Below, in pieces: positions 191-49,726 of a DNA stretch of 64,000 nt (positions are counted from its first letter, which is position 1; each line of letters starts with the position of its first letter). The position numbers and the translations under genes were made by a program. The stretch covers positions 163-64,162 of the forward strand of contig CAZUED010000003.1 in NCBI GenBank assembly GCA_964619545.1. The letters are read 5' to 3'. The DNA is from an uncultured Muribaculaceae bacterium (GTDB lineage Bacteria > Pseudomonadota > Alphaproteobacteria > Rs-D84). The notes beneath the pieces were generated by a model that was not told the origin of the DNA, did not search any database, and saw only the letters and a program-made list of their open reading frames with translations.

Positions 191-474
191 GATGTCATTC
201 CTATCACAATAGTTATAAATTTTAGTTATAATTTTTACATGGTTCAAAATAATCCGGACTTAAATTTTCCAAATTATACGGCACAGAATATGCCGCCAAA
301 AAATCCATGTGAAACCTGTTTGTTTTGGGGAATCACATGTAATCAATTAATATGCTCGAATTTCCAAAAATATAAAGAAGATACGAAAAAATTTGCGCTG
401 AGCAATGAAATTTCTCCCTTTAACAATTTATATTGATGTGATATAATCAGATGAAAGTAGAGAAGGGGTTTTTT

Positions 475-6318: not shown

Positions 6319-6777
6319 ATGAGAGAGCAATGCGGACGCAGCCTGATTGAAATGCTTGGAGTGCTGGCCATCGCAGGTGTTATGACCGCTGGTGCAATTG
6401 CTATGTATAACATTGTGCGCACCCGACAGATTCGGATGGTGGCGACCCAAGATATGAAAACAATCGCAAATAATACAAAGCTGTTGTATGCCGCGCGCCG
6501 TGATTATACCGGCATATCCGCAGATTATTTGGTTAAGGCTGGCGCAATGCGCAATGAAAAATCTCCTTTGGCTGGCGCTCAGTTTTCTATTTCTGCAAGT
6601 CCAGGCCCCAAGGAATTCGCAATGGTTTTTGCAGAATTAAATTTTAATGATTGCTCTTGGCTTGCGACGCAGAATTTTGATTGGGCGGACAGAATTAGTG
6701 TGAATGGGTATTTTGAGTCCGCATCGACTTATTGTCGTCAGATGGATAAAAATGAAGTTGCGGTTTGGGTGAAATAA
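6319..6777 (+). CDS. type IV pilin / pseudopilin-like protein with a class III (prepilin) signal peptide
   Basis: N-terminus MREQCG|RSLIEMLGVLAIAGVMTAGAIAMY: a Gly, then Glu at +5 and a hydrophobic helix, typical of the prepilin peptidase cleavage and methylation motif. Size of 152 aa fits a type IVa pilin. Strong RBS. Confidence 0.65.
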   Translation: MREQCGRSLIEMLGVLAIAGVMTAGAIAMYNIVRTRQIRMVATQDMKTIANNTKLLYAARRDYTGISADYLVKAGAMRNEKSPLAGAQFSISASPGPKEFAMVFAELNFNDCSWLATQNFDWADRISVNGYFESASTYCRQMDKNEVAVWVK

Positions 6778-7613: not shown

Positions 7614-8273
7614 ATGAAAAACCAAAAACCGCTTCCAAAAAAAGCGAAAAACTACAAGAAAATTGGTCTTATCGCTGCTGTGGTTGTCGCCGTGGCTGCA
7701 TTGGGATTTTGGGCTGTTCGGTATTTTACCGCACCGATTTCAATTGAAAAAGCAATCGAGCATGTTTCAACTGAAGCGGTAAGCGGCAGCGACCTGCGTA
7801 TTGCGGTCGTACGTATGGATGCAATTCAGACCCAAGCAAAAGTTTTGGCCGATTTGCATAAACAACGCGAATCTTATGAGAATAAGCTGCGTGATGAATT
7901 GTCAAATCGTCAGAAAGAGCTAGAAAATGAAAAGGCAGAAATAGAAAAATCGCAAGATGTTCTTTCACGTGAAGCTTTACAAAAACGCGTTTCTGATTAT
8001 CAGCAGAAAGTTTCAAAGTTGCAGCAAGATTTGACTACTCGCGCCCAGGCAATAGATGCATCTTTCCAGAAAGCATTGGCCAAGGTACAAAGCGAACATC
8101 TGGATCCGATAATTGACGCTGTTATTACAAAAAAGAACTTGTCATTGGTTATTGATGGCCGTTTGGCTCGCACAGGCGGAGAAATCAAGAATCTGGACAT
8201 TACGGATGACATAGTGATTGCTTTGGATAAAAGAATCCCAAGCGTCAAAATGGAAACTCCAAAAGGGTTCTAA
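7614..8273 (+). CDS. skp: Skp/OmpH-family periplasmic chaperone
   Basis: N-terminal TM/signal, long coiled-coil region, and position immediately upstream of lpxD-fabZ, the conserved skp-lpxD-fabZ context. Confidence 0.7.
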   Translation: MKNQKPLPKKAKNYKKIGLIAAVVVAVAALGFWAVRYFTAPISIEKAIEHVSTEAVSGSDLRIAVVRMDAIQTQAKVLADLHKQRESYENKLRDELSNRQKELENEKAEIEKSQDVLSREALQKRVSDYQQKVSKLQQDLTTRAQAIDASFQKALAKVQSEHLDPIIDAVITKKNLSLVIDGRLARTGGEIKNLDITDDIVIALDKRIPSVKMETPKGF

Positions 8274-8285
8274 AATAGTTCTGAA

Positions 8286-8318
8286 TTAAATCGCCGCAAT
8301 CGCGGCGATTTTTTTAAT
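8286..8318 (+). terminator. rho-independent terminator
   Basis: Hairpin tcgccgcaatcgcggcga followed by a T-run. Confidence 0.7.
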
Positions 8319-8403
8319 ATAAAAATGTTTTGTAAAAAACTTTGATTTTGTTGATTTTGCCTTTCTACTTTTGCCTTTTGTTTTTTTGTGTTATAATTCA
8401 CCT

Positions 8404-9147
8404 ATGAAAAAGTTTTTTGCTTCATTGTTTGTTATTAGTTTTTCATTGCTGTTCATGGCGCCTGTGCGTGCATCAGATGCCCCGGATTTCAAGATTTACG
8501 AAGACGTTTCCATAAATAATCAGCCAAAATCCATGCCAGAAATAGAGGAATTATTTCTTAATCCCCGTGCCCAGACAGAAAATCTTTGGGCTGCCGGAAA
8601 AAATTCAATGTTAGAAATTTCTTATACTGGTTGCCCATTTCATACAATTCGTGAATGCCTGATTTGGAAGCGTAAACCAGTAATAATGGAAACAATCCCA
8701 TTGCCAACGCGGCATATTAAAAAAACTGATGATTATCAAACCGCATTGGTAAAAAGGTACGAGGCTCTGATGCAGGCAGCCAGATCTTGTTGCACTGCCG
8801 GCATGGAGAACAAGTTGATAAATTCTGGCGCATCCGCTGGTTTGATTTATAAATTTATGGTTGATGATGCAAACTTTTACGGATTTGGGGATAGATGCTT
8901 GATGATAACAGATGAAGAACTGCAAGAAAACTATTCTGGGACTGCAACCGCAAGGGCGGTGATGGGTGTTCGTGATACATGCCTGTGTCAGCGGCGGGAT
9001 TATTTTGATGCACTACTGGCGCCATTTGACGATTTTCCAGACGAAGAGTATAATTATACTTATCAAGATGGATTGAAGCGCGAGGTAAATGTTTCAATCA
9101 GCAATGATGTACGTGCAGTCAAAGAAATTTTGACACGCTGCCTATAA
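8404..9147 (+). CDS. hypothetical secreted Cys-containing protein inserted between skp and lpxD
   Basis: Signal peptide MKKFFASLFVISFSLLFMAPVRA; no recognisable family. Confidence 0.55.
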   Translation: MKKFFASLFVISFSLLFMAPVRASDAPDFKIYEDVSINNQPKSMPEIEELFLNPRAQTENLWAAGKNSMLEISYTGCPFHTIRECLIWKRKPVIMETIPLPTRHIKKTDDYQTALVKRYEALMQAARSCCTAGMENKLINSGASAGLIYKFMVDDANFYGFGDRCLMITDEELQENYSGTATARAVMGVRDTCLCQRRDYFDALLAPFDDFPDEEYNYTYQDGLKREVNVSISNDVRAVKEILTRCL

Positions 9148-9215
9148 AAAAGTTAATAATCACTACATTTCCAATAAACTTGCACTGACAATTTCTGTGT
9201 GGTATTATTTCAATC

Positions 9216-10265
9216 ATGAAAAAACTAATACAATTTTTGTTCGGCCAATGTGCTGAAAAAACTACTGCCGGTGCGCTGGCTAAGAAATTTGGCATGGAGC
9301 TGCATGGTAATGCTTCGGTTCCAGTTCGTGGTGTTGCGCCTATTGCGGATGCAAAGCCCGGTGACTTGGCATTCTATTCAACCGAGAGAAATTCCGAAGC
9401 ATTCAAGATTTTACCGATTGAAACATTAAAAAATACCAAGGCATCGGTAATATTGGTACAAAAAGAAAATGTGAAATTTGCCCCAAAATGTGCAACTTTG
9501 CTGCTGACCGACAGCCCTCGCGCAAACATTATAAAAATCATAGGTGAAATTTATAAAGAAAAACCGCGACTGGGTGTTCATTGGGCTGCTAATATAGAGC
9601 ATGGGGTATTTTTCCGTAAACGCCGAAGTGTTTATGTTAGTCAGTTTGCAACTATTGAAAAGGGTGCGGTGATAGAACAGGGGGTGAAAATTTATCCGGG
9701 GGCTTTCATCGGTCGCGGTGTGGTGCTGGGGACTGGAACAATCGTTCATACTGGTGCACATATTGAAAATGCCACCATTGGTGCGAATTGTGTAATTCAC
9801 AGCGGTGCTGTTATTGGCAAGGAAGGATTTGGATATACGCGTCAAAATGGTAAGAATGTATTTATTCCGCACGTTGGTCGCGTGGTTATCGGGGATCGCG
9901 TTTCTGTTGGTGCAAATTCTTGCATAGATCGCGGAATGATGACAGATACAACCATTGGGGCTGGAACAAAGATTGATAACTTGATTCAGATTGCGCATGG
10001 CGTTGTTATAGGTCAAGAGTGTTTTTTAGCCGCAGGCGTTGGTCTGGCCGGTGGGGTTGTAATTGGCGACAGGGCAATGATTGGCGGTCATGTTGGAATT
10101 GCCAATGGTGTTAAAGTTGGTGATGATGCTGAAATAGGCGCGCAAAGTGGTGTTTTTCGCGATATTCCAGCGGGCGAGCGTCATATGGGCTATCCCGCAG
10201 TTCCGGGGATGGAATTTATGCGCGCTCATGCATGGGTCAAGAAAAACATGAGGGATAAGAAATGA
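9216..10265 (+). CDS. lpxD: UDP-3-O-(3-hydroxyacyl)glucosamine N-acyltransferase
   Basis: Left-handed beta-helix hexapeptide repeats (GVVLGTGTIVHTGAHIENATIGANCVIHSGAVIG...). Position between skp and fabZ. Confidence 0.9.
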   Translation: MKKLIQFLFGQCAEKTTAGALAKKFGMELHGNASVPVRGVAPIADAKPGDLAFYSTERNSEAFKILPIETLKNTKASVILVQKENVKFAPKCATLLLTDSPRANIIKIIGEIYKEKPRLGVHWAANIEHGVFFRKRRSVYVSQFATIEKGAVIEQGVKIYPGAFIGRGVVLGTGTIVHTGAHIENATIGANCVIHSGAVIGKEGFGYTRQNGKNVFIPHVGRVVIGDRVSVGANSCIDRGMMTDTTIGAGTKIDNLIQIAHGVVIGQECFLAAGVGLAGGVVIGDRAMIGGHVGIANGVKVGDDAEIGAQSGVFRDIPAGERHMGYPAVPGMEFMRAHAWVKKNMRDKK

Positions 10266-10690
10266 TGGTAGATACAAAGGGTGTAGAAGCTGTAATTCCA
10301 CATCGCGGCAATATGAGATTGGTGGATGAAATTCGCGAATTTAATGAAATCAGTGGTGTTGGTATAAAACATGTCAGGGATGATGAATTTTGGTGTGCCG
10401 GACATTTTCCCGGAAATCCGATAATGCCTGGTGTTTTACAGGTCGAGGCCTTGGCGCAAACTGCATGCTTTATTGTGTTCAAGCAAATGGGTGCAACAGG
10501 TAAGGACACTTTGGGCTATTTTACCACTATGGAAAAAATCAGATTTTCGCACATGGTAAAACCTGGCGATACGCTTGAATTGCATGTAGAAATTTTGGCA
10601 AAAAAATTAAACATGTATAAATTTCATGGAATTGCAATGGTTGGCGGGAAAAAAGTTTCCGAGGCTACATTTTCCGCAATCATGAATTAA
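10262..10690 (+). CDS. fabZ: 3-hydroxyacyl-ACP dehydratase
   Basis: Hotdog-fold motif HFPGNPIMPGVLQVEALAQ; 4-nt overlap with lpxD. Confidence 0.9.
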   Translation: MMVDTKGVEAVIPHRGNMRLVDEIREFNEISGVGIKHVRDDEFWCAGHFPGNPIMPGVLQVEALAQTACFIVFKQMGATGKDTLGYFTTMEKIRFSHMVKPGDTLELHVEILAKKLNMYKFHGIAMVGGKKVSEATFSAIMN

Positions 10691-10789
10691 AATCGCTGTA
10701 CGTGCCTTTATCGGCAGTTAAATACTTGTATAAAGCATCGGGCGTCCATATAAATGGCGCCCGAATTTTTAATACGTGTTTTGCGAAAG

Positions 10790-11000
10790 AAACACAGGTT
10801 ATGTTAGAGCATAAGTTATAGGGCATAACGCATAGATATTTTTTACCTTGTGCCTTATGCTCTAAAAACACCCATCCATTTTGTTCCAGGATTTTTAGGT
10901 CGCGGGTTTGCAGCAGTATAAAGTTTATTTTCCCTGAACCGACTTGTATCATAGTGTATCTATGTCTTATGCCTTTAGCCTTATGCTCTAAAACGATTGC
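10790..11000. repeat. non-coding cluster of short direct and inverted repeats (unit ~cttatgctctaa / ttagagcataag)
   Basis: atgttagagcataag at ~10801; gccttatgctctaaaa at ~10852 and again at ~10976; surrounding partial copies (gcataacgcatagat, gtatctatgtcttatgcc). Confidence 0.6.
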
Positions 11001-11097
11001 GCAGTGTCGAAATTTTCGGCAAAAAATGCGTGGCATTATTTTCCTGGTATTATTTGTAAATCCGATAAGCATGAAAATCTCCGATTTTTATTTAATT

Positions 11098-11209
11098 TTC
11101 AAAGTGCAATTGTGGTGTCGGCTTCACCGACAACCTATAAATAATTATTTTACCTGTGAGCAACGCGAACACATTAATTGCACATTGCACTTTGCTAATT
11201 GCTCATTAG
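11098..11209. repeat. left copy of a ~110-bp repeat element, forming an inverted pair with 18612-18722
   Basis: caattgtggtgtcggcttcaccga...ataattatt...tgtgagcaacgcgaacacattaattgcac matches the reverse complement of 18620-18704 at about 80%. The copy carries caaagtgcaat / attgcactttg termini and repeated (g)caattg sub-motifs. Confidence 0.8.
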
Positions 11210-11616
11210 TTTTCCAGCCATCCTTTGATTTTTGCAGCTTGCGCGATAGTTTGCATTGCATCATTCCACAGGGCAGCTTTGGCATTTTCTGACCATTCAT
11301 GCTGATGTGGAGCGCGCCGCAAGTCTCCAAATTCTTTCAAGACTTCCAGTTGTTTGGGCGTTAGCTTGCCGGCCAGGTAAAGCCGAGTGATAAGAGTTTC
11401 AACATCAATAGCTTCACAAGGATATGGATTTCGTGCCACTGGTCTTCCGATACGCATACGCGCAATGCTGGCAGATGAAAGCGCATCCTTTTGTCGGCAA
11501 GTTAAAAACCAAAACCACATTTGATCGGCGTCTTGAAATTTTCTTTCTGGTGCGTCAAAAGCCGTAGAAGGTATATTTTTTTGTTTTAAGTTGGCGTTCA
11601 TTTTTTCTCTCTCCAT
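11206..11616 (-). CDS. hypothetical protein inside the inverted-repeat-bounded cassette
   Basis: 136-aa ORF with no recognisable motif. Its stop abuts the left inverted repeat, and it has its own upstream region. Confidence 0.45.
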   Translation of the reverse strand: MEREKMNANLKQKNIPSTAFDAPERKFQDADQMWFWFLTCRQKDALSSASIARMRIGRPVARNPYPCEAIDVETLITRLYLAGKLTPKQLEVLKEFGDLRRAPHQHEWSENAKAALWNDAMQTIAQAAKIKGWLEN

Positions 11617-11739: not shown

Positions 11740-11768
11740 AAAAAAATTCGCCACTTGGGCGAATCGGA
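11740..11768 (-). terminator. rho-independent terminator downstream of the Cys-rich gene
   Basis: Hairpin ttcgccacttgggcgaa with an A-run on the plus strand (T-run on the minus strand). Confidence 0.6.
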
Positions 11769-11790: not shown

Positions 11791-13938
11791 TTATCTATCT
11801 TGACCGATTTTGGTAGATGTTCCGGATTTCAGGTTGTCATTGGCTATACGAAGTTGTACTTGGTATGCGTTTATACAATCTGTCATACTGGAATTAGTCA
11901 TAGAATCGCCACATTTTTCAAATTGAGATTCAGATAATTTCAATGTTGTTGACATTCCTTTCAGCAAGTCAGAATCAAATTTAAGCTGCTTTCTGGCATC
12001 TGTTTTATTTGATGCGGAACGTATTACGCTCAAGTTGTTATTCAAGCAAGAAATCATATCTGATGTGCTGTAAACCTCATTACAATCACGAGCACCATTT
12101 AATCTTACATTACCTTTAGAAGATTTGCTTGCACTAGTAGAAGAATCATCAGTAGTATCGCCGCCAGCGGCCTGTAATTTTGATACCAGAATGGATTTCT
12201 CCATCTGAGTCTTTAACCGCTTCATAGTAACGTCCAAAAAGTCATACTGACGTTTCATCTGTTGAGTAATAATTGTCGTTTTCAATGCGATTGTATCCGC
12301 CATCATTTGTTTGTCAGCGGCCGAGGTTGGATTTTTTGTACTTCCAATGTTATAAGCATGGGTGCTGCACAAAGCGATGGCTGAATTGATATAATCATTT
12401 CCGCTGTCTTCTTTGCACCCGTTATCAGCTGTGCCAATGGAAAGAATTGCGTCCAGATTGTTGTTTTTGACACACAGATTGCGATCTGGCAAACGTCTTA
12501 GCTGTGCCAAATTACTTATAACAGCTAACTGATCAGAATTTGTTGCACACCATTTTATTGCGTCGGCTGCAGATTCTTCGCCGCGAATTACACTTGGTGC
12601 GTCCTGGGCAATTATTCTGCGCAAAGTTTCTATATCAATCGTCGATTGCTTTTTGCGATTTTTAAATAACACGGAATTATCAATTGCGTCAGATGCACAT
12701 GCAACGCGAATCCCGCCAGAACTGCCCGCATCCATATCCAGCCAGTTTTGTTGAATGTCCTCTTGATTATTTAACATCTTTAACAAAGTGCAATGGGGCT
12801 GTTGAGATTTTACTCGGCGGTTCCCCTGAGCATCATTTTCGTATGCTATAGGCCAGTATCCGCGGCCGGTTTTTGTATCATAATCGCAAGTTATGCTTGT
12901 CTTATCATCAATTTTTTCAGTTTGATTTTGAGAACATGTCTCGCACATATATTGCCCCCAGACATTGCAAGAGCCATTCAGCATCATGTAAATATCTGTT
13001 ATATCAACGCCCAAAGATTGCGCTAAAACCAACGCATCATACAACTCGTCCAAAACTGCATCATACGGATCAAAGAATTTATTTGCCTTATCCTTGAACG
13101 CTTTGACTCGCCGAGGACCCTGGCAATTATTTCCATTAGAATCACAACGCGCATAATCAAAAACATTTTGCATTGTGTTTTTTAAATCTTTCATCGCAAC
13201 ATCAGAATTTTCAAGCTGGGTCAGTATTTGACCACCAATTTGTTCGCGTGCCAAAACATCTGCCGATACACCCGCATTGACTGCATTAGTAATTGTTTTA
13301 TCGGGTGCTGATGCGCTTGCTGCTTGGGCCGCGGCCTGTGCTTGCTGGGCCGCCAGTTGTTTTTGCTCTTCCAATGCTTGCTGAACAGCCGCGGCGGATT
13401 GAGCAGATTGTTCTTGCATCTGTTGCTGCATCTGCATCATCTGCGCTTGCATTTGTTCTATCTGAGTGTTTGATTGCGCCGCTGCTGCATTTGCAGCCTG
13501 CGTTGTTGCAGCATTTTGCGCCTCGGTTGCTTTTGCAATAGCGGCACTTACCATCTGTGCCGCCAATGTTTGGATTAAATCGTCACCATATTGCTCGCAC
13601 GAAGGATTACTTTTCACGCAACCTTTCACAATCGGAAGCGCCAATTCCATGGTTGTGCAGCCCGCGCACTTTGGCTGGGCGCAACGCAAAATAAGTGAAT
13701 TACAATTTCCAAAATCTGCAACCGGCCTTTGTTGCCCCAGTGGATTAGGGTTTATCGCGGCATTCCACTGATTGTTGTTCAATGCGCCGGCACTGCCGGT
13801 AAATACAGTTCTGTTACCTGAAATTCCGCCAGAATTTGCAAAAGAAGGCCCTGGTCCGCCGATAGGACTGTCGCCATAGGCAGTCCCCAGTGCAAAGCAG
13901 GCGGTACAAACAGATAAAAATCTGATTAAAATCTTCAT
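11791..13938 (-). CDS. large secreted Cys-rich, Gln/Ala-rich coiled-coil protein; last gene of the VirB8/9/10-like operon
   Basis: Signal peptide MKILIRFLSVCTACFALGTAYG. Low-complexity run AQAAAQAASASAPDK with QQMQ repeats, and many Cys (CAQPKCAGC, CETCSQNQ). Starts 67 nt downstream of the VirB10-like stop. Confidence 0.7.
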   Translation of the reverse strand: MKILIRFLSVCTACFALGTAYGDSPIGGPGPSFANSGGISGNRTVFTGSAGALNNNQWNAAINPNPLGQQRPVADFGNCNSLILRCAQPKCAGCTTMELALPIVKGCVKSNPSCEQYGDDLIQTLAAQMVSAAIAKATEAQNAATTQAANAAAAQSNTQIEQMQAQMMQMQQQMQEQSAQSAAAVQQALEEQKQLAAQQAQAAAQAASASAPDKTITNAVNAGVSADVLAREQIGGQILTQLENSDVAMKDLKNTMQNVFDYARCDSNGNNCQGPRRVKAFKDKANKFFDPYDAVLDELYDALVLAQSLGVDITDIYMMLNGSCNVWGQYMCETCSQNQTEKIDDKTSITCDYDTKTGRGYWPIAYENDAQGNRRVKSQQPHCTLLKMLNNQEDIQQNWLDMDAGSSGGIRVACASDAIDNSVLFKNRKKQSTIDIETLRRIIAQDAPSVIRGEESAADAIKWCATNSDQLAVISNLAQLRRLPDRNLCVKNNNLDAILSIGTADNGCKEDSGNDYINSAIALCSTHAYNIGSTKNPTSAADKQMMADTIALKTTIITQQMKRQYDFLDVTMKRLKTQMEKSILVSKLQAAGGDTTDDSSTSASKSSKGNVRLNGARDCNEVYSTSDMISCLNNNLSVIRSASNKTDARKQLKFDSDLLKGMSTTLKLSESQFEKCGDSMTNSSMTDCINAYQVQLRIANDNLKSGTSTKIGQDR

Positions 13939-14005
13939 ATTCTCTCTTGAAGCAAGTTTATCATAAAATGCGAGGAAATGCAAGCCTCCCTTTAACAAGT
14001 GGAAG

Positions 14006-16300
14006 CTAAATTATTGGGGGAAAGCAATCACCGCCAGCTGCTGGACAGCAGTTGAATCCTTGGCTACCCATGTCTGTATAAACCTCGCCCGTGCAACAGC
14101 CGTTTAAGTCTGGCGATGTACCATCTTCGCAGGTCAGTGCCGTCGTGGTGGTGGTTGCGGGTGGTGTTTCTTTGGCAAATGGATTTTTTATTGTACCGTC
14201 CGCATTGTATTGCAGGCCCAAAACTTGCTCGTTATATTCTTTTGTTCCCTTAGTTAATTGCTGGCCATTGGTTCCGACAATACCGGTTTGCTGCTGGTTA
14301 TTCCAAATAGCCTGCTGTTGGGCATTATTTATCGCTTGATACTGAATTGCTTTACAATATGCAACAACGGTACGATAGTCATAGCCAGCCTCGGAAATAG
14401 TTTGTGCTGTTACACCCGCACTCAGCTGTCCATTAGTGCCGCAGTATTTCTGTATATCAAATCCGCGAACTTGTCCAACCCATGATGCATCATCATAATT
14501 TGGTATGGCTTCGGACGCTTTATGAGAAACATATTGCGAAGGAGTCAAATTGCAATTTTCAAGCCCATTCACCTTGTCGCAGAAGTTCACAATTAAATCC
14601 TTTGGCGAATAAACCGTTATGCGCGTACCAGCGGCAATAGAAAATGGAGGAACCGTGTTGTCCAGCATATCAACCATTAATTTTTGCGCAACTCTGTTCC
14701 ATGTTGAAATAATTTCATTTTTTGCCAGCTCGGACGAGCGAACTTGACCACTTTGTGTAACCGTATTGTTATCCAGATCAATTTGATTTACGAACTTGTC
14801 TGAAATTGGCGCAATCAAATTAACAGCGGCAGGCACAACTGCCGTTATCATCGGCATTATGAATTGCTCCATATAATCTGTGCTGCCGTGACCTGGAACG
14901 CCAACGCGACCTTGGCTGTCGCCAGCAAAGGGCTCGTCCCCGGCAAAGCTGAATTCAACTCCGTCCGGTCTAACAAAGCGATACCATTTGATTTGCATAC
15001 GACCGATGGCTTTATACGGACCCGGCATTTCACCAGTCAAATAACCCAACATCAATGTTCCGGTCGGAATTATTATAGTGCGTCCGTTATCAGAATAGAC
15101 ATGTCTATCAACTGTTGCCTGAACTGGCAACATGGATTGACGCTCTATCTTTGCATCTGCACGTATTTCATTTACGATTGTCGCAGGAATAGGCTTGTAC
15201 TGGCGCAGAACAAAAGTGCGGTCATAGGGCTCGGTCGATATAAATGCATCGCCCGCAGATGAAGGTACCAGGTTACTTTCTGGTTTATATGCAAATGCTG
15301 GATTTATCTCTGACAAACGTTTTGCACCACCCGCAGCTCTGGGTAATTCTGCCGCTGCTGCATTTACTTGTCTTGCTCGATTTTGTACGCGTGCGTTCGC
15401 CGGATTGGACAATACAGGAACATTCGCGCTTGATGCAATAAATCCGATTCGATCAAAGTCAGAGCCTATTTTTCTGCTGGGATTTTTAAGATCGGTAATA
15501 AATCCGGTATCCAAATTATATTCACCCAGTGGGCTGGTGCAGTCCAAGTCAGAAAAAGGATGAAAAAGATAATGTCCACCTTGGGGACGTATCCATCCGA
15601 TTTGCTTTCCATATGCGTCATAGCCGCCGAATGCAAATTCATAGCAGCGCTCGGTATTTAATGCTGCTGTAGTTACTGGCGCAGGCAAATTTTCTGTTGC
15701 AAATTTTGGCGCAAGGGTTTCGACCGCCTCGGCCACAGGATTAATTTCAGGGGCAGTCAAAACAGGTTCTGGTTCTGGCAATTGCACTGGTTTTTGTGGT
15801 TCTACTTTTTTTGTAGATAAAGCAACAGGAATTTCAGCAGTTTGTGCCATTTTGGCCTCGGCACTGGCGGGGTAATACTCAATAAGTACTTTAATGCCGG
15901 TTGGTTCCAAGTCTGCAGCAGGCGTCCAAGTTAATTCTGCACTGCAAGGAATGCCAAGTGTAATTTCGCCCATATTTGTACAGGTGGTATCTATGCTTAA
16001 TCCATCAATTTTTTGGGATAGTTTTACGCTGGGAATCATTGCGACTGCATTCGAAGAAATTTTAATAGTCTGTGTCTGTTTTTCGCCAACTGGAATGTTT
16101 TGCCATGCGATCTCAGATGGATCCATGGTCAGCTCCAGAACTGGTTTTGATTCGGACTTTGGTTTATCCTTGGAATCGCGACCCATCAGAATAACCAGCA
16201 AAACAACGACTACCAAAAAAGCAGCGAACATCACGATCCACAGCACATGCCGTGGCATGGACTTTTTTACATCGCTGATAGTGGTTGTTATCATCGCCAA
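14006..16300 (-). CDS. VirB10/TrbI/TraB-like T4SS core protein with an extended Gln-rich, Cys-rich C-terminal tail
   Basis: N-terminal TM (HVLWIVMFAAFLVVVVLLVILMG), a Pro-rich linker (PEPEPVLTAPEINPV), then a VirB10-like barrel region (GRTIIIPTGTLMLGYLTGEMPGPYKAIGRMQIKWYRFVRPDGVEF...AAGTRITVY). About 250 extra residues follow, ending CEDGTSPDLNGCCTG...NCCPAAGGDCF. Confidence 0.75.
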   Translation of the reverse strand: MAMITTTISDVKKSMPRHVLWIVMFAAFLVVVVLLVILMGRDSKDKPKSESKPVLELTMDPSEIAWQNIPVGEKQTQTIKISSNAVAMIPSVKLSQKIDGLSIDTTCTNMGEITLGIPCSAELTWTPAADLEPTGIKVLIEYYPASAEAKMAQTAEIPVALSTKKVEPQKPVQLPEPEPVLTAPEINPVAEAVETLAPKFATENLPAPVTTAALNTERCYEFAFGGYDAYGKQIGWIRPQGGHYLFHPFSDLDCTSPLGEYNLDTGFITDLKNPSRKIGSDFDRIGFIASSANVPVLSNPANARVQNRARQVNAAAAELPRAAGGAKRLSEINPAFAYKPESNLVPSSAGDAFISTEPYDRTFVLRQYKPIPATIVNEIRADAKIERQSMLPVQATVDRHVYSDNGRTIIIPTGTLMLGYLTGEMPGPYKAIGRMQIKWYRFVRPDGVEFSFAGDEPFAGDSQGRVGVPGHGSTDYMEQFIMPMITAVVPAAVNLIAPISDKFVNQIDLDNNTVTQSGQVRSSELAKNEIISTWNRVAQKLMVDMLDNTVPPFSIAAGTRITVYSPKDLIVNFCDKVNGLENCNLTPSQYVSHKASEAIPNYDDASWVGQVRGFDIQKYCGTNGQLSAGVTAQTISEAGYDYRTVVAYCKAIQYQAINNAQQQAIWNNQQQTGIVGTNGQQLTKGTKEYNEQVLGLQYNADGTIKNPFAKETPPATTTTTALTCEDGTSPDLNGCCTGEVYTDMGSQGFNCCPAAGGDCFPPII

Positions 16301-16321
16301 CGCAGACTCCTGAGCCTTTTA

Positions 16322-17797
16322 TTATTGAACTCTTACTACATTGCAAGCGGTCCCTTGGAACTTTGTCATTTTATCACAAAGCTTTTGTGCGCTTTCAATG
16401 TCCGACATGGGCCCAATACGCAGGCGATAAAGCCGCGCGGTTGCAGCGCCCGTACCCAGATCTCCAACTCCAGACTCGTCAACTGCGAAATAAACCATAT
16501 TACGATAAGGATTCAGCAGTCCTTGTCCATCATCACCACTGAATTTCGCCAGCAGCTTTGTCCAATAATCATTCAGTGCTTTGACAGAAGTATCGGATTT
16601 CAGCTCAACAGCGACACCTGCTTGATTAGAGGTTATAATTGGAATGTCGCTTTGCGGCAGGAACGAGCCCGCAGTATTGCGAACACTTGGCAGCATATTA
16701 ACGCCAGTCGCACCAGTTGATGCGCCATTTGTCGGCATTACCATCGGCGGTTGAAATCCATTAACCTGTTGGTCAGTGATTGGCTGCAACATTGCACCAG
16801 AATCAACCGGCATATTTCCATAACCAACATTTTGCAAGGATTGTGATGATTGCATGCTTTGCATAACGTTAGATTCAGCCAGTGCCATGACGCTGGAAGT
16901 GTCAGCAATCAAGAAGGGTTTTGCGCGACGCTTGATACAAACAATTCGCTGACCACTGCGCAATACCATATCCCCAACTGCTTCTACAATCAACAGGCGT
17001 CCGTTTTCACCATCAGTACGAAAACCGACTGGCGATTCACCACCTTCGACCAAGATAGAAACAACTGGTCTTTGAGTCATTGCGATAACCTTGTCGCCAA
17101 AATCAATATAGGTAAAGATTCTGTCGCGCCATACGCGTTCAGGCGCAATTACAAAGTCATCAGGATTCGGGACAAAAATGTCTAAATCAAAGCGGAACTC
17201 TGACGGATCAATTTTCATTGTTTTTATCCAGCCGTAATCTTCGCCGTCAACGCCCAAGGTAGAAGTTGAATTTTTCTTTGGGAAAATAGAGTTCATACCA
17301 GAAGTTTGACCAGCAGAAGAGCTGGTTGCATTTGGTATGCTAGAACGCCCATCCAGAACAACATCAACCTGGGAATAAGAAATTTCGCTGGAATTAGCAG
17401 GTTCGGAACGCAGATAGAATAAATATTTATTTCCTGATTTGCCAGTAATAATCAAATTTGTGTCGCTGCCCTGATTTGTTGCAACCGGTGTCATATAAAT
17501 TGTTCTGCCACCTTTTTGCGGATCCATTTGGAACAAACCTTCGTTACCAATGACGCCATCTTCGATAATTTCGCCTTCGGGCAAATTTATCATGGTTACC
17601 ATTCCATTACGCAAACGAATCGGAAGAACTGCGCCTGGCGCCCATGTCAGTTGGGCAAAGCCAGGTTTAGAACTGCCTGTGGCCATATTTGCCTCTGGGT
17701 TATCCCACGCATCCTGGACACCATAATCTTCGGCACTTGCCCCGCCAATACAAAAGGCAAAAATCAAAGGGCAAAGAGCAAATAATTTTATATTCAT
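16322..17797 (-). CDS. VirB9/TraK/CagX-like T4SS outer-membrane core protein, about twice the usual VirB9 size
   Basis: Signal peptide MNIKLFALCPLIFAFCIGGASA. N-terminal VirB9 signature GMVTMINLPEGEIIEDGVIGNEGLFQMDPQKGGRTIYMTPVATNQGSDTNLIITGKSGNKYLFYLRSEP (TNL...T...Y.F.L pattern). Confidence 0.75.
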   Translation of the reverse strand: MNIKLFALCPLIFAFCIGGASAEDYGVQDAWDNPEANMATGSSKPGFAQLTWAPGAVLPIRLRNGMVTMINLPEGEIIEDGVIGNEGLFQMDPQKGGRTIYMTPVATNQGSDTNLIITGKSGNKYLFYLRSEPANSSEISYSQVDVVLDGRSSIPNATSSSAGQTSGMNSIFPKKNSTSTLGVDGEDYGWIKTMKIDPSEFRFDLDIFVPNPDDFVIAPERVWRDRIFTYIDFGDKVIAMTQRPVVSILVEGGESPVGFRTDGENGRLLIVEAVGDMVLRSGQRIVCIKRRAKPFLIADTSSVMALAESNVMQSMQSSQSLQNVGYGNMPVDSGAMLQPITDQQVNGFQPPMVMPTNGASTGATGVNMLPSVRNTAGSFLPQSDIPIITSNQAGVAVELKSDTSVKALNDYWTKLLAKFSGDDGQGLLNPYRNMVYFAVDESGVGDLGTGAATARLYRLRIGPMSDIESAQKLCDKMTKFQGTACNVVRVQ

Positions 17798-17876
17798 TTC
17801 ACATCCTTCCTAATTTTTTTCTCAAGCGAATTCAGCTGTGACATTTGCCACTTGCCGTTTGCTATTTAAGTTTATG

Positions 17877-18530
17877 CTATTGCATAAAATCGAGCGGATC
17901 ACTTCCCCCTGATTCCACCCGGTATTCCGAGACTTGCAGCCCCAGCGGATTTTCCTGTCTGTTGCCCCATTTCAATTCTGGCGTGTAGGTCAATCCTATT
18001 ACAATAGTAAAATCTTTTGGCGGGGTATGTCCAGCGCTTTCTGATGTGCAAAACCATCTGAATTTTACAGCGAATTTATCACTTCCGCGTGGCTCAATTG
18101 CGGGCGATTGAAACTCTACAGGGCACGAAAACTGAACGTTCGGAGAATCCTGCATGAAAGCAGACCATAACTGAGTTGTTGCAAATCTGGCATAAACCTC
18201 TCTAGATGACCAGATATAAACTGGGCCGTCTGGGCTGCGCCACTTGTACCGCATGGTATTTACATTGGGTGTTATTTCGTTGCGCGCGCGAATATATTCC
18301 TTGATGAAGCTTTCCTTGTAATCGATCATAGTTTTGTTATTTACTGGCAGTTGTTGAATTTCGATTATTTGACCCTCGACACGGCGCGCATTCAGCAAGA
18401 AAACCTGGGTCCTATTCAATGGGAACATGTTAGAGACTGCGAAAATCATGGCCAAAGCAGTTGCAATTGCTGCGGCCAGCACGAAAGACATCATGCGCGC
18501 GGTAAAAGCATTGGGTGTGACAACTGCCAT
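17877..18530 (-). CDS. VirB8/TraE-like bitopic inner-membrane T4SS protein
   Basis: Single N-terminal TM (MMSFVLAAAIATALAMIFAVSNMF), a ~180-aa periplasmic domain, and the near-C-terminal motif NPLGLQVSEYRVE, matching the conserved VirB8 NPxG(F/L)xV...Y signature. Confidence 0.75.
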   Translation of the reverse strand: MAVVTPNAFTARMMSFVLAAAIATALAMIFAVSNMFPLNRTQVFLLNARRVEGQIIEIQQLPVNNKTMIDYKESFIKEYIRARNEITPNVNTMRYKWRSPDGPVYIWSSREVYARFATTQLWSAFMQDSPNVQFSCPVEFQSPAIEPRGSDKFAVKFRWFCTSESAGHTPPKDFTIVIGLTYTPELKWGNRQENPLGLQVSEYRVESGGSDPLDFMQ

Positions 18531-40536: not shown

Positions 40537-41595
40537 TTAATTCCATCCAAATACTCGTGCAAAATCATTCCACATCGTGAATGCGAACAAAGCCATTATT
40601 AAAATCCAGCCAAATAAAATCACAAAGTCCATACCGCGACCTTGCAATTTTTTACGAATCACACCCTCGACCCCCAGAATTAAAAGATAGCCACCATCCA
40701 AAACCGGCAAAGGCAACAGATTGATGATTGCCAAGTTAACCGACAAAAGTCCGATTATTGACAGCAATGCGAAAATGCCAGAGCTCATGGCTTTGCCGCT
40801 GACCTCGGCAATAGTAATAAAGCTGCCCAATTGTTTGGAAGAACGTTCGCCAGTTATTATTTGCTTTAATACACGGACAAGGGTTTTGCTTTGCACCCAT
40901 GTTTCGCGTGCGCCGCTGTATGCGGCCTGGAAAATGTTTTTCTTTTGTAATTCAGATCTTGTTCCATCCGCGACCAAACCCCATCTGTCACCCGGTGCAA
41001 TTTTAACCTGGACCAGTGATTCGCCGCGAATCAAGACTACATCCGCATCGCGTTTACCAGCCAGTTCTTTACCTAAAATAATTTCACCCCAGTTGGTAAT
41101 TTTCGCACCATCAATTCTTGCAATAGTATCACCTGCACGCACGCCTGCAATAAATGCAGGGCTGCCCTGGATAACCTGACCAACAACTGGCAATTGTACC
41201 ATACGTGGTTTTGCTGCAAACATTGCCGTATAAATTCCCCATGCCAGAAGGAAATTCATGATAACGCCGGCCGCAACAATCAATGCTTGTTTCCAAGCTG
41301 GGACAGAAAGGTAATGACCTTTCTTTTTTGCGGCGGAAAGTTTGGCGTATTTTTTACGATCAAACATATCTTCTTGGCCATATGCCGCGCAATACCCACC
41401 AAGTGGCAAAACAGAAATTTTCCACAATGTGCCATGCTTGTCATGCCATTTAATCAGTGCAGGTCCGAATCCGATAGAAAAAGTATTAACACGAACACCC
41501 GCCCAGCGCGCGGCCAGAAAGTGTCCCAGCTCGTGAATAAATACCACGACACCCAGAACAATCAATAAAGCAATAATCATTAAAAAAATATTCAT
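40537..41595 (-). CDS. rseP: RIP site-2 zinc metalloprotease
   Basis: HELGHFLAAR HExxH in TM1; PDZ region; C-terminal TM segments. Confidence 0.9.
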   Translation of the reverse strand: MNIFLMIIALLIVLGVVVFIHELGHFLAARWAGVRVNTFSIGFGPALIKWHDKHGTLWKISVLPLGGYCAAYGQEDMFDRKKYAKLSAAKKKGHYLSVPAWKQALIVAAGVIMNFLLAWGIYTAMFAAKPRMVQLPVVGQVIQGSPAFIAGVRAGDTIARIDGAKITNWGEIILGKELAGKRDADVVLIRGESLVQVKIAPGDRWGLVADGTRSELQKKNIFQAAYSGARETWVQSKTLVRVLKQIITGERSSKQLGSFITIAEVSGKAMSSGIFALLSIIGLLSVNLAIINLLPLPVLDGGYLLILGVEGVIRKKLQGRGMDFVILFGWILIMALFAFTMWNDFARVFGWN

Positions 41596-41617
41596 TAAAT
41601 TTTTCCTTACTTATTAT

Positions 41618-42247: not shown

Positions 42248-42259
42248 TATATTTTCTCC

Positions 42260-42958: not shown

Positions 42959-43057
42959 GAACTTTCCTTACTCCGGCAATTTTATATTGTCAAATGGCAA
43001 AAAACAAGTTCTTTTAATCCTTGAAAAGCAAACTATAAATTGCTAGATTGCACAGCG

Positions 43058-45423: not shown

Positions 45424-45570
45424 ATGAAAAAAATTCTTTTGGGTTTGTTGGTTGTTTTCGCATTGGCTGGATGCGGGCAAGTTTATGATCGTGAACCAGT
45501 TGGTGTCGGATTTGACAATAATGAATTAAAATTATCTCCTTGCGCATGCATGCAGGTCTATCGCGCATAA
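45424..45570 (+). CDS. small lipoprotein (48 aa), candidate VirB7-like
   Basis: MKKILLGLLVVFALAGCGQ..., lipobox LAGC. First gene of a four-gene membrane/secreted operon. Read manually; overlaps a spurious minus-strand ORF in the track. Confidence 0.4.
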   Translation: MKKILLGLLVVFALAGCGQVYDREPVGVGFDNNELKLSPCACMQVYRA

Positions 45571-45582
45571 AGGCGCGAACTG

Positions 45583-46275: not shown

Positions 46276-46283
46276 AAAATTAA

Positions 46284-46934
46284 ATGAAAACACTAGTATC
46301 ATTTTTTTTCGGAATTATTTTGATGGCTTTGGTCTTGGCTATTGCACTAACGGGCGGCAAGTCATTTGATGCCAGTCGAAATTTTTCTATAAATTCTGTA
46401 ATTTTTCAGCCTGCGGATTTATCGCGAGATCGGATTGAAAAGCCAATACCACTGGATGTTTTATCAGACGAGTTTGTGCGCGACAGCCTGATAAAAAAAT
46501 TTGTGAACGAGTATTTTTACATAGCGCCAGATAGCTTTGATATGGCGCGTCGTAGAAGAACAGACAGCACACTTGCAAGAATGTCCGATCCCGCAGTATT
46601 TGATCAATGGAATGAAAAGTTTGCCGAAGATATGGAAAATCTGGCAGATCAAAATGTAATGCGTCGGGTTATTGTAAATAGCATTAATCTGCCAGCTAAC
46701 AGCGAGTATTTCCAAGTGTCATATGACTTGCTGACATGGGATGTTGCGAACGACATCACTCGTCAGCCATTAATCCAAAAAAACAAATCAATGTCTGTTC
46801 GATTGGATTTCGAAAAAGGGGTTCGGCAACAGCAAACAAACGGCGCACGTTTTGATGTAAAAAAATATTTGGTTGATGGTGGTGATCCTGCTACAATTTT
46901 CAGATTCCGAGTGTTGGAAGTAGTTGTGAAATAA
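46284..46934 (+). CDS. bitopic membrane protein (VirB8/DotI-like size and topology)
   Basis: N-terminal TM (LVSFFFGIILMALVLAIALTG) and a ~190-aa periplasmic domain; 216 aa. Confidence 0.5.
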   Translation: MKTLVSFFFGIILMALVLAIALTGGKSFDASRNFSINSVIFQPADLSRDRIEKPIPLDVLSDEFVRDSLIKKFVNEYFYIAPDSFDMARRRRTDSTLARMSDPAVFDQWNEKFAEDMENLADQNVMRRVIVNSINLPANSEYFQVSYDLLTWDVANDITRQPLIQKNKSMSVRLDFEKGVRQQQTNGARFDVKKYLVDGGDPATIFRFRVLEVVVK

Positions 46935-46944
46935 GGGATAAATA

Positions 46945-49656: not shown

Positions 49657-49726
49657 GGGAAAATAAAAAAAACGCGCTATGCGCGTCTGTTTGATGCCTC
49701 AATTATATCAAATTTTTCATAAAAAA

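What the first reader, a model, noticed from the sequence alone, without database searches (positions are those of the whole stretch)
14006..18530. Orphan T4SS core-complex trio (VirB8-, VirB9-, VirB10-like) with atypically large subunits and no ATPases, pilin or VirB3/4/6 nearby
The 217-aa protein has VirB8 topology and the hallmark NPLG(L)QV..Y motif. The 491-aa protein carries the VirB9/TraK/CagX N-domain pattern (TNLIITGKSGNKYLFYL) but is about twice VirB9 length. The 764-aa protein has a TM, a Pro-rich linker and a VirB10/TrbI barrel region, then ~250 extra residues ending in a Cys-rich tail (CEDGTSPDLNGCCTG...NCCPAAGGDCF). No VirB4, VirB11 or VirD4 ATPase, VirB2 pilin or VirB6 occurs in the 64-kb window. 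The order B8-B9-B10 matches the first three genes of the Rickettsiales rvh B8-B9-B10-B11-D4 operon and icmL-icmK-icmE of Dot/Icm. Here the operon instead continues into a large secreted Cys-rich protein. This may be a fragment of a scattered T4SS, or an outer-membrane core complex repurposed for something other than canonical conjugation or effector secretion.
Basis: partly seen in the sequence, partly recalled or inferred. Interest (0 to 1): 0.75.

Follow-up and report, generated by a model that had tools for sequence, protein, structure and literature searches.

The report
Conserved, elaborated T4SS core trio
Three adjacent genes encode enlarged versions of the VirB8, VirB9 and VirB10 scaffold of a type IV secretion machine; they are a conserved chromosomal feature of a whole order of tiny-genome gut bacteria (Rs-D84/"Enterousia"), no motor ATPase lies anywhere near them, and they are a concrete lead to how these partner-dependent bacteria interact with other cells.

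Summary
ORFs 17877-18530, 16322-17797 and 14006-16300 (minus strand) pass the Pfam thresholds for VirB8, CagX/VirB9 and TrbI/VirB10. Predicted folds match solved VirB9 N-domains and VirB10 barrels. The trio is not a stray island: it keeps the same place beside tRNA-Trp/secE-nusG in at least 80 species (280 species representatives matched) of the uncultured order Rs-D84 ("Ca. Enterousia", genomes 0.7-1 Mb), with dN/dS about 0.05-0.07. The extra size comes from added modules. VirB9 carries a C-terminal SPOR domain. VirB10 carries a PapD/ASH-like Ig domain, a small beta domain and a 193-residue extension that ends in a near-invariant six-Cys tail. That tail also ends unrelated periplasmic proteins. 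HMMs built from seven plasmid virB operons found VirB8/9/10 throughout but no VirB1-6, B11 or D4 in 2.7 Mb of held Rs-D84 DNA. That DNA covers only a few genomic regions, so I could not settle whether the ATPases lie elsewhere (as in rvh or ComB) or are absent. The window also holds a probable VirB8 paralogue. The Cys-rich downstream gene is specific to one subclade. Verdict: a new variant of a known kind, of moderate-to-high interest.

The parts
17877..18530 (-). VirB8-like protein, 217 aa: short cytoplasmic N-terminus, one TM segment (about aa 13-35), periplasmic domain ending in an NPLG motif
   Evidence: Pfam VirB8 6.6e-14, above the cut-off; custom VirB8 HMM 2e-10; present upstream of virB9 in 80 related loci; dN/dS 0.07
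16322..17797 (-). VirB9-like protein fused to a SPOR domain, 491 aa: signal peptide, VirB9 N- and C-domains (aa 49-290 = 16928-17653), low-complexity linker, SPOR-like beta-alpha-beta-beta-alpha-beta unit (aa 394-490 = 16328-16618)
   Evidence: Pfam CagX 1.6e-21; NTD fold matches TrwF/VirB9 NTD at TM 0.8; SPOR Pfam 4.9e-4 here and detected in 53 of 57 homologues, best 3.6e-6; SPOR topology in the model; mean family identity 65-69%
14006..16300 (-). VirB10-like protein, 764 aa: TM aa 17-39 (16184-16252); PapD/ASH-like Ig domain aa 57-164 (15809-16132); Pro-rich linker; small beta domain aa 219-289 (15434-15646); barrel with two antenna helices aa 352-571 (14588-15247); C-terminal extension aa 572-764 (14009-14587)
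   Evidence: Pfam TrbI 2.6e-18; AF2 model; Foldseek hits to CagY/TrwE/VirB10/TraF/ComB10 for the barrel and to MSP/ASH/PapD-like domains for the N-domain; hundreds of full-length homologues at 47-93% identity
14024..14131 (-). Six-Cys tail module of VirB10 (C724-C759; CEDGTxPDxNGCCTGExYTDMGxQGFNCCPxxGGDC, followed by FPP)
   Evidence: Near-invariant in 63 homologues; one copy per locus, always at the VirB10 C-terminus; the same module ends unrelated bitopic and secreted proteins; no Pfam family
11791..13998 (-). Secreted Cys-rich, Gln-rich coiled-coil protein (735-aa ORF; the likely start is MKILIRF at residue 21), 7 bp after virB10 and followed by a terminator-like hairpin at 11745-11765
   Evidence: No Pfam or NCBIfam family; present in only 9 of 86 loci, i.e. 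the window's subclade; unrelated to the other Cys-rich family; hairpin
11206..11616 (-). Conserved soluble protein of about 115 aa (motifs WFWF, RRAPHQ); a syntenic neighbour, probably a separate transcription unit
   Evidence: Next to virB10 in about 60 of 86 loci; no hit in Pfam, PDB or PHROGs; separated from the upstream gene by a 175-240 bp gap
10680..11072 (-). Conserved soluble protein of about 115 aa (invariant C18, H23, C93); a syntenic neighbour paired with the previous one
   Evidence: In about 64 of 86 loci; no hit in Pfam, PDB or PHROGs
46284..46934 (+). Probable VirB8-fold paralogue, 216 aa (N-terminal TM segment plus periplasmic domain)
   Evidence: hhalign against the Rs-D84 VirB8 family: prob 82%, E 1e-5, 133 columns; not detected by Pfam or by the canonical VirB8 HMM
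45424..45570 (+). 48-aa lipoprotein (LAGC lipobox) heading the second locus: lipoprotein, 230-aa TM protein (45583-46275), VirB8-like (46284-46934), 286-aa secreted protein (46945-47805). It is VirB7-like in size and position only
   Evidence: synteny bamA-lipoprotein-230-216-283-yraN is conserved in relatives; only signal-peptide-level matches in NCBIfam; the 230-aa protein has a sub-threshold Pfam VirB8 hit of 5.3e-4 that profiles do not confirm

Best explanation
The trio encodes the envelope-spanning scaffold of a chromosomal, vertically inherited P-type (VirB/Trb-like) type IV secretion machine that belongs to the core genome of the order Rs-D84 ('Ca. Enterousia' and relatives). Shown: VirB8-, VirB9- and VirB10-family membership; the added domains; order-wide synteny; strong purifying selection. 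Inferred from the known pKM101, R388 and Xanthomonas structures: VirB10 is anchored in the inner membrane by its N-terminal TM helix and crosses the periplasm, and its C-terminal barrel and two antenna helices form the outer-membrane pore. Sec-exported VirB9 builds the rings around it, and here it is additionally pinned to peptidoglycan by its SPOR domain. VirB8 forms the periplasmic/inner-membrane collar. The lineage-specific Ig-like domain and the six-Cys tail add periplasmic contact surfaces. Because the same tail ends other periplasmic proteins, it probably docks several proteins at one common site. Also inferred, and not shown: the motor and inner-membrane channel (at least VirB4, VirB6 and VirB3/B2) are encoded elsewhere in the 0.7-1 Mb genome, as in the Rickettsiales rvh 'archipelago' and the split comB2-4/comB6-10 operons of Helicobacter. 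The machine would move macromolecules (proteins or DNA, outward or inward) between these biosynthetically crippled bacteria and their partner cells or surroundings.
For: Family and fold membership. Closest relatives are MPF_T plasmid VirB10s at about 31% identity. Conserved in 280 species representatives, with 80 loci inspected, always beside secE-nusG/tRNA-Trp. dN/dS is 0.05-0.07. The antenna helices and the cytoplasmic N-terminus/TM of VirB10 are conserved. Retention of VirB8, an inner-membrane-complex component with no known role in a stand-alone outer-membrane ring, plus a probable VirB8 paralogue, argues for an inner-membrane partner. Published precedents for scattered T4SS genes: rvh islets with duplicated virB4/8/9 (PMC2653234) and split comB operons with comEC elsewhere (PMC7366825). 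Rs-D84 is predicted to depend on partners and to lack standard transporters (PMC12306168).
Against: No VirB4, B11, D4, B6, B3, B2, B1 or B5 homologue was found, even at E<=1, in the 64-kb window, within +-10 kb of the trio in 80 species, around the bamA-linked second locus, or around 80 loci of the tail-bearing family (2.72 Mb in all). In rvh and in canonical operons, virB11 and virD4 follow virB10 directly; here they never do. The only genome-level study of Rs-D84 discusses flagella and type IV pili but never mentions a T4SS, which is weak evidence that the easily annotated ATPases are missing. The held DNA samples only a few genomic regions, so genome-wide absence or presence is untested.
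Confidence: 0.55

Rival explanations
1. A truly ATPase-less, repurposed core complex. VirB8/9/10 would form a stand-alone trans-envelope structure, either a peptidoglycan-anchored outer-membrane channel or tether. It could let Sec-exported, Cys-rich proteins or small molecules cross the outer membrane, or staple the envelope together in a genome that has lost other systems, without a T4SS motor.
For: No ATPase or channel gene lies near the trio in 80 species or anywhere in 2.72 Mb of held Rs-D84 DNA. The lineage-specific additions (SPOR anchor, Ig domain, shared Cys tail) are what a change of function could look like. Many Sec-dependent Cys-rich proteins are encoded nearby. The published genome reconstruction reports no T4SS.
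Against: No precedent is known to me for a functional VirB8/9/10 set without VirB4 (own knowledge). VirB8 and the conserved cytoplasmic/TM end of VirB10 imply an inner-membrane partner. Scattered T4SS loci are well documented in reduced alphaproteobacterial genomes. Only a small part of each genome was sampled.
Confidence: 0.25
2. A ComB-like DNA-uptake T4SS (a functional sub-case of the best explanation). The complex would import environmental DNA across the outer membrane and ComEC would carry it across the inner membrane. That would supply nucleotides and genetic material to cells that cannot make nucleotides. It would need only a VirB4-type ATPase elsewhere, with no VirB11 or VirD4.
For: The ComEC N-terminus lies about 10 kb from the trio in at least 12 species (Pfam Competence in L003). 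Rs-D84 lacks nucleotide biosynthesis. ComB lacks VirB11, VirD4, VirB1 and VirB5 and is split into two operons with B8-B9-B10 together, which fits the absence of B11/D4 after virB10. NCBIfam ComB10 scores 7.9e-13.
Against: The VirB10 model scores higher than the ComB10 model, and the barrel is closest to rhizobial plasmid VirB10. No comB6/comB7 lies upstream of virB8. A type IV pilin-like gene (window 6319-6777) and an A24 prepilin peptidase occur in the lineage, so a conventional pilus-based uptake route may exist.
Confidence: 0.2
3. A decaying remnant of an integrated conjugative element or plasmid T4SS that has lost its other genes.
For: Only three of about eleven T4SS genes are present locally.
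Against: The ORFs are intact and full-length in hundreds of lineages, with dN/dS 0.05-0.07. The chromosomal position among housekeeping genes is fixed, with no integrase, relaxase or repeats, and GC content (0.44-0.45) is close to the surroundings. The genomes are streamlined, with 89-91% coding density in the nine Enterousia MAGs.
Confidence: 0.02

Closest known systems
P-type (VirB/Trb, MPF-T) T4SS outer-membrane core complex: VirB7/VirB9/VirB10 of Agrobacterium, TraN/O/F of pKM101, TrwH/F/E of R388, Xanthomonas VirB7/9/10
   Same: Gene order B8-B9-B10. Pfam families match. The VirB9 N-domain fold and the VirB10 barrel with its two-helix antenna match. VirB10 has an N-terminal TM segment and a Pro-rich region. 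The best sequence matches are rhizobial MPF_T plasmid VirB10s at about 31% identity.
   Different: The locus is chromosomal and vertically inherited. No B1-B7, B11 or D4 lies alongside. VirB9 is nearly twice the usual size, with a SPOR domain. VirB10 carries an Ig-like domain, an extra beta domain and a 193-aa Cys-rich extension. No VirB7 is adjacent to virB9.
Rickettsiales vir homolog (rvh) T4SS
   Same: An alphaproteobacterial, reduced-genome, vertically inherited T4SS whose genes are scattered in islets. virB8 is duplicated, and a small lipoprotein lies beside a virB8 paralogue.
   Different: In rvh, virB11 and virD4 follow virB10 directly; here they never do (80 species). No VirB4 or VirB6 expansions were seen in the DNA held. 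The SPOR, Ig and Cys-tail additions are not rvh features to my knowledge. The paralogue evidence here is only moderate.
Helicobacter/Campylobacter ComB DNA-uptake T4SS
   Same: Split operons with B8-B9-B10 together, the ATPase elsewhere and no VirB11/VirD4; it works with ComEC, which these genomes retain.
   Different: comB6 and comB7 precede comB8 in ComB, and nothing comparable does here. Sequence affinity is no closer to ComB10 than to VirB10. The function is untested.
Cag T4SS (CagX/CagY)
   Same: Enlarged VirB9 and VirB10 homologues with lineage-specific additions. CagY is the best PDB sequence hit for the barrel (1e-7).
   Different: There are no CagY-type repeat regions and no Cag3, CagM or CagT. 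The added domains are different and the genomic context is different.

Membership tests
VirB8 (PF04335) | Profile match above the curated threshold over nearly the full length | tested here: met
   52.7 bits against a cut-off of 23.2, profile positions 17-210 of 213; custom HMM 2e-10
VirB8 (PF04335) | Bitopic topology (N-terminal TM segment, periplasmic NTF2-like domain) and a C-terminal NPxG motif | tested here: met
   The sequence shows a hydrophobic segment at aa 13-35 and NPLG near the C-terminus. The fold itself was not modelled.
VirB9/CagX (PF03524) | Profile match above threshold, a signal peptide and the VirB9 N-domain beta-sandwich | tested here: met
   77.5 bits against 34.2; signal peptide visible in the sequence; Foldseek to the TrwF NTD at TM 0.79-0.83, rmsd 2.2 A
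VirB9/CagX (PF03524) | C-terminal domain fold that pairs with VirB7 and VirB10 in the O-layer | tested here: inconclusive
   Pfam covers the region, but the monomer model has pLDDT of about 30 there. No complex was modelled.
VirB10/TrbI (PF03743) | Profile match above threshold, a beta-barrel with a two-helix antenna, an N-terminal TM segment and a Pro-rich region | tested here: met
   67 bits against 35; barrel and helices 473-505/521-548 in the model; Foldseek to CagY, TrwE, VirB10, TraF and ComB10
SPOR domain (PF05036) on VirB9 | Profile match and beta-alpha-beta-beta-alpha-beta fold | tested here: met
   The window protein scores 20.8 bits against a cut-off of 21 (just below), but 53 of 57 homologues match, best 3.6e-6. 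The topology is present in the model.
Complete P-type T4SS (MPF-T) | A VirB4-family ATPase in the same locus | tested here: not met
   No hit at E<=1 in the window, within +-10 kb in 80 species, or in 2.72 Mb in all
Complete P-type T4SS (MPF-T) | VirB4, VirB6, VirB3 and VirB2 anywhere in the genome | not testable with these tools
   Whole Rs-D84 genomes could not be retrieved. The complete chromosomes OZ246409.1 and OZ007020.1 exist.
Rickettsiales rvh T4SS | A contiguous virB8-virB9-virB10-virB11-virD4 islet | tested here: not met
   virB10 is followed by small unknown genes, by yidC or by a Cys-rich gene in all 80 loci. There are no VirB11 or VirD4 HMM hits.
Rickettsiales rvh T4SS | Duplicated virB8, virB9 and virB4 and multiple virB6 | tested here: inconclusive
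   One probable VirB8 paralogue. No VirB9, B4 or B6 copies were seen in the DNA held.
ComB DNA-uptake T4SS | A comB6-comB7-comB8-comB9-comB10 operon plus comB2-4, working with ComEC | tested here: inconclusive
   No B6 or B7 lies upstream of virB8. ComEC is present in at least 12 species. ComB4 and ComB2-3 are not testable.
Dot/Icm type IVB (IcmL-IcmK-IcmE) | IcmL/DotI, DotH and DotG family matches | tested here: not met
   Pfam assigns VirB8, CagX and TrbI rather than type IVB families. DotH appears only as a weaker fold hit to the shared VirB9-like N-domain.

The most novel reading that the evidence does not exclude
Rs-D84 bacteria have no VirB4-family motor at all. The VirB8/9/10 complex, remodelled with a SPOR anchor, an Ig domain and a shared Cys-tail docking module, would work as an autonomous or differently powered trans-envelope conduit. 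For example, it could be the outer-membrane gate for Sec-exported Cys-rich surface proteins, or for the lineage's type IV pilin/prepilin-peptidase system. That would be the first T4SS core complex co-opted by another machine.
Probability: 0.2. Interest if true: 0.85.

Novelty: new variant of a known kind. Interest (0 to 1): 0.58.

Why it matters
Rs-D84/"Enterousia" is a widespread, uncultured order of animal- and human-gut Alphaproteobacteria with genomes under 1 Mb. It has no respiration, has incomplete glycolysis, has no amino-acid or nucleotide synthesis and has no standard transporters. How it obtains what it needs is an open question (PMC12306168). The papers I could search say nothing about an envelope-spanning, strongly conserved, structurally elaborated T4SS scaffold in these genomes. 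Such a scaffold is the most concrete candidate so far for their cell-cell or DNA-uptake interface, and it makes the question testable by whole-genome HMM census, metatranscriptomics, cryo-ET and FISH. For T4SS biology it offers new accessory modules: a VirB9-SPOR fusion, a VirB10 Ig domain, and a six-Cys tail shared between VirB10 and unrelated periplasmic proteins. It may also be a natural case of a core complex uncoupled from its ATPases.

Tried and rejected
1. Whole-genome search for VirB4/B11/D4. No tool returns more than +-10 kb around a hit. I tried extending past both window ends through other assemblies: three look-ups found nothing, and one gave about 7 kb beyond the right end with no T4SS genes.
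2. The 230-aa ORF at 45583-46275 as a VirB8 paralogue. Its Pfam hit (5.3e-4) is sub-threshold, and neither pairwise BLAST, hhalign nor a PDB profile search confirms it. I do not claim it.
3. The 48-aa lipoprotein as VirB7. Only its size, lipobox and position fit, and it has no PxNK-type motif. I left it as a possibility.
4. The two conserved proteins of about 115 aa after virB10 as T4SS parts. They have no match in Pfam, PDB or PHROGs. A 175-240 bp gap and a terminator-like hairpin separate them from the operon, so they count as syntenic neighbours only.
5. Using the tail-bearing bitopic family to reach other T4SS genes. Its 80 loci hold gcrA, housekeeping genes, secreted proteins and an A24 peptidase, but no T4SS genes.
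I redid it with admissible homologues.
7. Literature searches for Rs-D84 or Enterousia together with T4SS returned nothing relevant. The 2023 Enterousia paper is not held.
8. The promoter and terminator scans gave counts no higher than shuffled sequence. I used them only as positional hints.


Full report
OBSERVATION. Each passes Pfam's curated threshold for the expected family: VirB8 6.6e-14, CagX/VirB9 1.6e-21, TrbI/VirB10 2.6e-18. NCBIfam gives the same names at scores far below equivalog level, so the proteins are divergent members. HMMs I built from seven annotated plasmid virB operons recover the same ORFs at 2e-10, 3.7e-21 and 1.9e-22. Direct sequence matches to solved structures are weak: CagY 1e-7, Xanthomonas VirB10 1e-4, TrwF 8e-4, VirB8 0.05.

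The predicted folds settle the identifications. The VirB10-like model (mean pLDDT 67, with domains at 75-90) has a barrel with two long antenna helices. It matches CagY, TrwE, Xanthomonas VirB10, pKM101 TraF and ComB10. The VirB9-like N-domain superposes on the TrwF/VirB9 NTD at TM 0.8 and rmsd 2.2 A, with weaker hits to DotH, CagX and TraK. The barrel is about 31% identical to VirB10 of Sinorhizobium and Agrobacterium MPF_T plasmids, so the nearest known class is the P-type VirB/Trb system rather than Dot/Icm.

WHERE IT COMES FROM. The window is chromosomal. tRNA-Trp, secE-nusG-rplKAJL-rpoBC lie to the right. fabZ-lpxD-skp, an OmpA-like gene and dnaX lie to the left. bamA, rseP, cdsA, uppS, frr, dnaB and ppdK lie further on. 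Full-length homologues of the VirB10-like protein (47-93% identity, 100% coverage) number in the hundreds. They come from MAGs named Alphaproteobacteria or 'Rickettsiales' bacterium from termite, rumen, mouse, chicken, horse and human gut. A scan of GTDB species representatives found relatives in 280 genomes. The 80 best include Candidatus Enterousia species and two closed chromosomes of 716,531 and 958,618 bp.

The one genome-level paper on this order (Rs-D84) describes genomes under 1 Mb. They lack respiration, the TCA cycle, upper glycolysis, amino-acid, nucleotide and lipid synthesis, and standard transporters. The paper proposes an obligate partner-dependent life. It mentions flagella and type IV pili but not T4SS (PMC12306168). 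I found no paper that links Rs-D84 or Enterousia with a T4SS.

CONSERVATION AND CONTEXT. I called and clustered ORFs in the window and 85 related loci. The order nusG/secE | virB8-virB9-virB10 | two small genes | yidC-lspA-nhaP-ksgA-recR... recurs across the order. dN/dS between the window and relatives is 0.05-0.07 for all three genes. VirB9 is the most conserved (mean column identity 65-69%) and VirB10 less so (about 50%).

The 735-aa secreted Cys-rich protein that follows virB10 by 7 bp occurs in only 9 of 86 loci, the window's subclade. A terminator-like hairpin follows it at 11745-11765. It is unrelated to the other Cys-rich family in the window.

The two soluble proteins of about 115 aa that usually follow virB10 (window 11206-11616 and 10680-11072) are strongly conserved. 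They match nothing in Pfam, PDB or PHROGs, and a 175-240 bp gap separates them from the operon. I treat them as syntenic neighbours, not as parts of the machine.

WHY THE SUBUNITS ARE LARGE. VirB9 has a normal VirB9 portion (aa 49-290), then a low-complexity linker and a C-terminal beta-alpha-beta-beta-alpha-beta unit. Pfam SPOR scores 20.8 bits in the window protein, just under the cut-off of 21. It is detected in 53 of 57 homologues, best 3.6e-6. This is therefore a VirB9-SPOR fusion, that is, a peptidoglycan-binding anchor on the core complex.

VirB10 reads as follows: a cytoplasmic peptide and a TM segment (17-39); a confident Ig-like domain (57-164) whose fold matches MSP/ASH/PapD-like domains; a Pro-rich linker; a small conserved beta domain (219-289); the barrel (352-571); and a 193-residue extension. 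The last 40 or so residues (C724-P762, six Cys) are almost invariant across the family, more so than the barrel.

I searched residues 572-764 against 1.84 billion representatives and got 208 hits. Many of them match only that tail. They fall into three groups. The first is bitopic proteins of about 630-850 aa, with a conserved cytoplasmic N-domain, a coiled coil, one TM segment and a periplasmic linker. The second is signal-peptide proteins of about 200-270 aa with two or three tandem tails. The third is short proteins. None has a Pfam family. The tail is thus a lineage-specific periplasmic module shared by VirB10 and unrelated proteins. My inference is that it docks them at a common site.

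THE MISSING PARTS. The Pfam scans of the window covered every ORF of at least 110 aa except obvious housekeeping genes and ORFs that overlap longer ones. They found DnaX, DnaB and phage terminase as the only P-loop proteins. No neighbour of the trio in 80 species is a T4SS ATPase; the unusual neighbours are an ABC transporter, NrdD, a PBP, SurA and glycosyltransferases.

The strongest test used the custom HMMs for VirB1-B11 and VirD4 against all 34,474 six-frame ORFs of at least 40 aa in 2.72 Mb of Rs-D84 DNA. At E<=1e-3 they gave 68, 84 and 86 hits for VirB8, VirB9 and VirB10. For VirB1, B2, B3, B4, B5, B6, B11 and VirD4 they gave none, even at E<=1.

That DNA covers only a few regions of each genome: the trio locus, the bamA-linked locus, the locus of the tail-bearing family, and this window plus about 7 kb beyond it. 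Genome-wide presence or absence is therefore untested, and no available tool could test it.

OTHER T4SS-LIKE PIECES. Downstream of bamA the window has a 48-aa lipoprotein (LAGC lipobox), a 230-aa TM protein, a 216-aa TM protein and a 286-aa secreted protein (45424-47805). This set is syntenic in relatives. The 216-aa protein aligns with the Rs-D84 VirB8 family at profile level (hhalign prob 82%, E 1e-5, 133 columns), so it is a probable VirB8-fold paralogue. The 230-aa protein's sub-threshold Pfam hit is not confirmed. The lipoprotein resembles VirB7 only in size and position.

MECHANISM. I commit to the following. The trio is the scaffold of a chromosomal P-type T4SS that is part of the Rs-D84 core genome. 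By analogy with the pKM101, R388 and Xanthomonas complexes, VirB10 spans from the inner membrane to an antenna-lined outer-membrane pore. VirB9 forms the surrounding rings and is tied to peptidoglycan by SPOR. VirB8 forms the inner collar. The motor and inner channel would be encoded elsewhere, as in the rvh 'archipelago' (virB4/8/9 duplicated, five islets; PMC2653234) and the split comB2-4/comB6-10 operons (PMC7366825). I give this 0.55.

Family membership, the added domains, synteny and selection are shown. The assembly geometry, the location of the ATPases and the cargo are inferred.

The main rival (0.25) is that there is no motor and the complex has been repurposed. In its favour are the consistent local absence, the remodelling of the subunits and the silence of the published genome reconstruction. 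Against it are the retention of VirB8 and of the conserved cytoplasmic end of VirB10.

A functional sub-case (0.2) is ComB-like DNA uptake. ComEC lies about 10 kb away in at least 12 species, and the cells cannot make nucleotides. However, a type IV pilin-like gene (window 6319-6777) and an A24 prepilin peptidase (Pfam 1.4e-12) exist in the lineage, so a pilus route is also possible.

A decaying remnant is excluded by the conservation data.

NOVELTY AND SCORE. The proteins belong to known families, so this is not categorically new. The combination appears undescribed: order-wide chromosomal conservation in a lineage with genomes under 1 Mb, a VirB9-SPOR fusion, a VirB10 Ig domain, a shared six-Cys tail, and no ATPase nearby in 80 species. 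I rate it a new variant of a known kind, with interest 0.58. It would rise to about 0.85 if closed genomes prove to lack VirB4.

Noticed in passing
window 14024-14131 (-); proteins P0275, P0291, P0296, P0299, P0302, P0303, P0326, P0335; loci L090-L169: The six-Cys C-terminal tail of VirB10 also ends an unrelated family of bitopic proteins of about 700 aa (conserved cytoplasmic N-domain, coiled coil, one TM segment, motif IASKPAYNVSQNE) that is encoded just after gcrA. It also occurs in 2-3 tandem copies in small secreted proteins. None has a Pfam or PDB match.
   Followed up: partly
window 6319-6777 (+); L092:8789-9277 (-): A 152-aa ORF has a type IV pilin-like N-terminus (G|RSLIEMLGVLAIAGV, Glu at +5; NCBIfam prepilin domain 15.3 bits against a cut-off of 16.3). 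An A24 prepilin peptidase (Pfam 1.4e-12) is encoded in relatives, next to a cluster of secreted proteins. The published Rs-D84 analysis does not report type IV pili for this order.
   Followed up: partly
window 45424-47805 (+): A second envelope-protein cluster lies directly after bamA: a 48-aa lipoprotein, a 230-aa TM protein with conserved Cys, a 216-aa probable VirB8-fold paralogue and a 286-aa secreted protein. The 230-aa family was found only in the window's subclade (18 homologues).
   Followed up: partly
window 451-2439 (+), 2461-4704 (+); L143:1906-4659 (-): A paralogous family of large secreted Cys-rich proteins (3-5% Cys; motif C..Y/F.CMD.FC......RC.C after a Ser/Thr/Ala-rich region) is spread across Rs-D84 (BLAST E 1e-15 to 1e-41 between members). 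It has no Pfam family and could be surface-coat or adhesin proteins. The 258-aa Cys-rich protein at 8371-9147, wedged between skp and lpxD, is also conserved.
   Followed up: partly
window 48820-59575 (-); L086-L089, L170: T7-like phage structural genes (capsid, scaffold, tail tube, split terminase; a head-tail connector in relatives) are interleaved with dnaB and an HTH regulator. They are conserved in gene order in relatives whose nearby 230-aa protein is only 59-65% identical. This looks more like a domesticated element (GTA-like?) than a recent prophage.
   Followed up: no
window 10680-11616 (-): Two strongly conserved soluble proteins of about 115 aa (one with WFWF and RRAPHQ motifs, one with invariant Cys/His/Cys) follow virB10 in about 60 of 86 loci. 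Neither has a detectable homologue in Pfam, PDB or PHROGs.
   Followed up: partly
L003:22049-22382 and the edges of 11 other trio loci: The ComEC (competence channel) gene lies about 10 kb downstream of the trio in at least 12 Rs-D84 species, so these minimal genomes retain the inner-membrane DNA-uptake channel.
   Followed up: partly
window 7614-10690 and 40537-45364: The usual uppS-cdsA-rseP-bamA-skp-lpxD-fabZ cluster is broken here. skp-lpxD-fabZ abuts the trio locus and bamA abuts the second VirB8-like locus, so both T4SS-like loci sit at the break points of the outer-membrane biogenesis cluster.
   Followed up: no
L006, L007, L009, L019, L070 (record titles): Several public records that carry this alphaproteobacterial locus are titled 'uncultured Muribaculaceae bacterium', including the closed 716,531-bp chromosome OZ246409.1. 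This is probably a taxonomic mislabel.
   Followed up: no
window 58312-58800 (-): A Lys/Ala-rich histone H1-like (HC2, Pfam 2.1e-21) protein is encoded among the phage-like genes.
   Followed up: no
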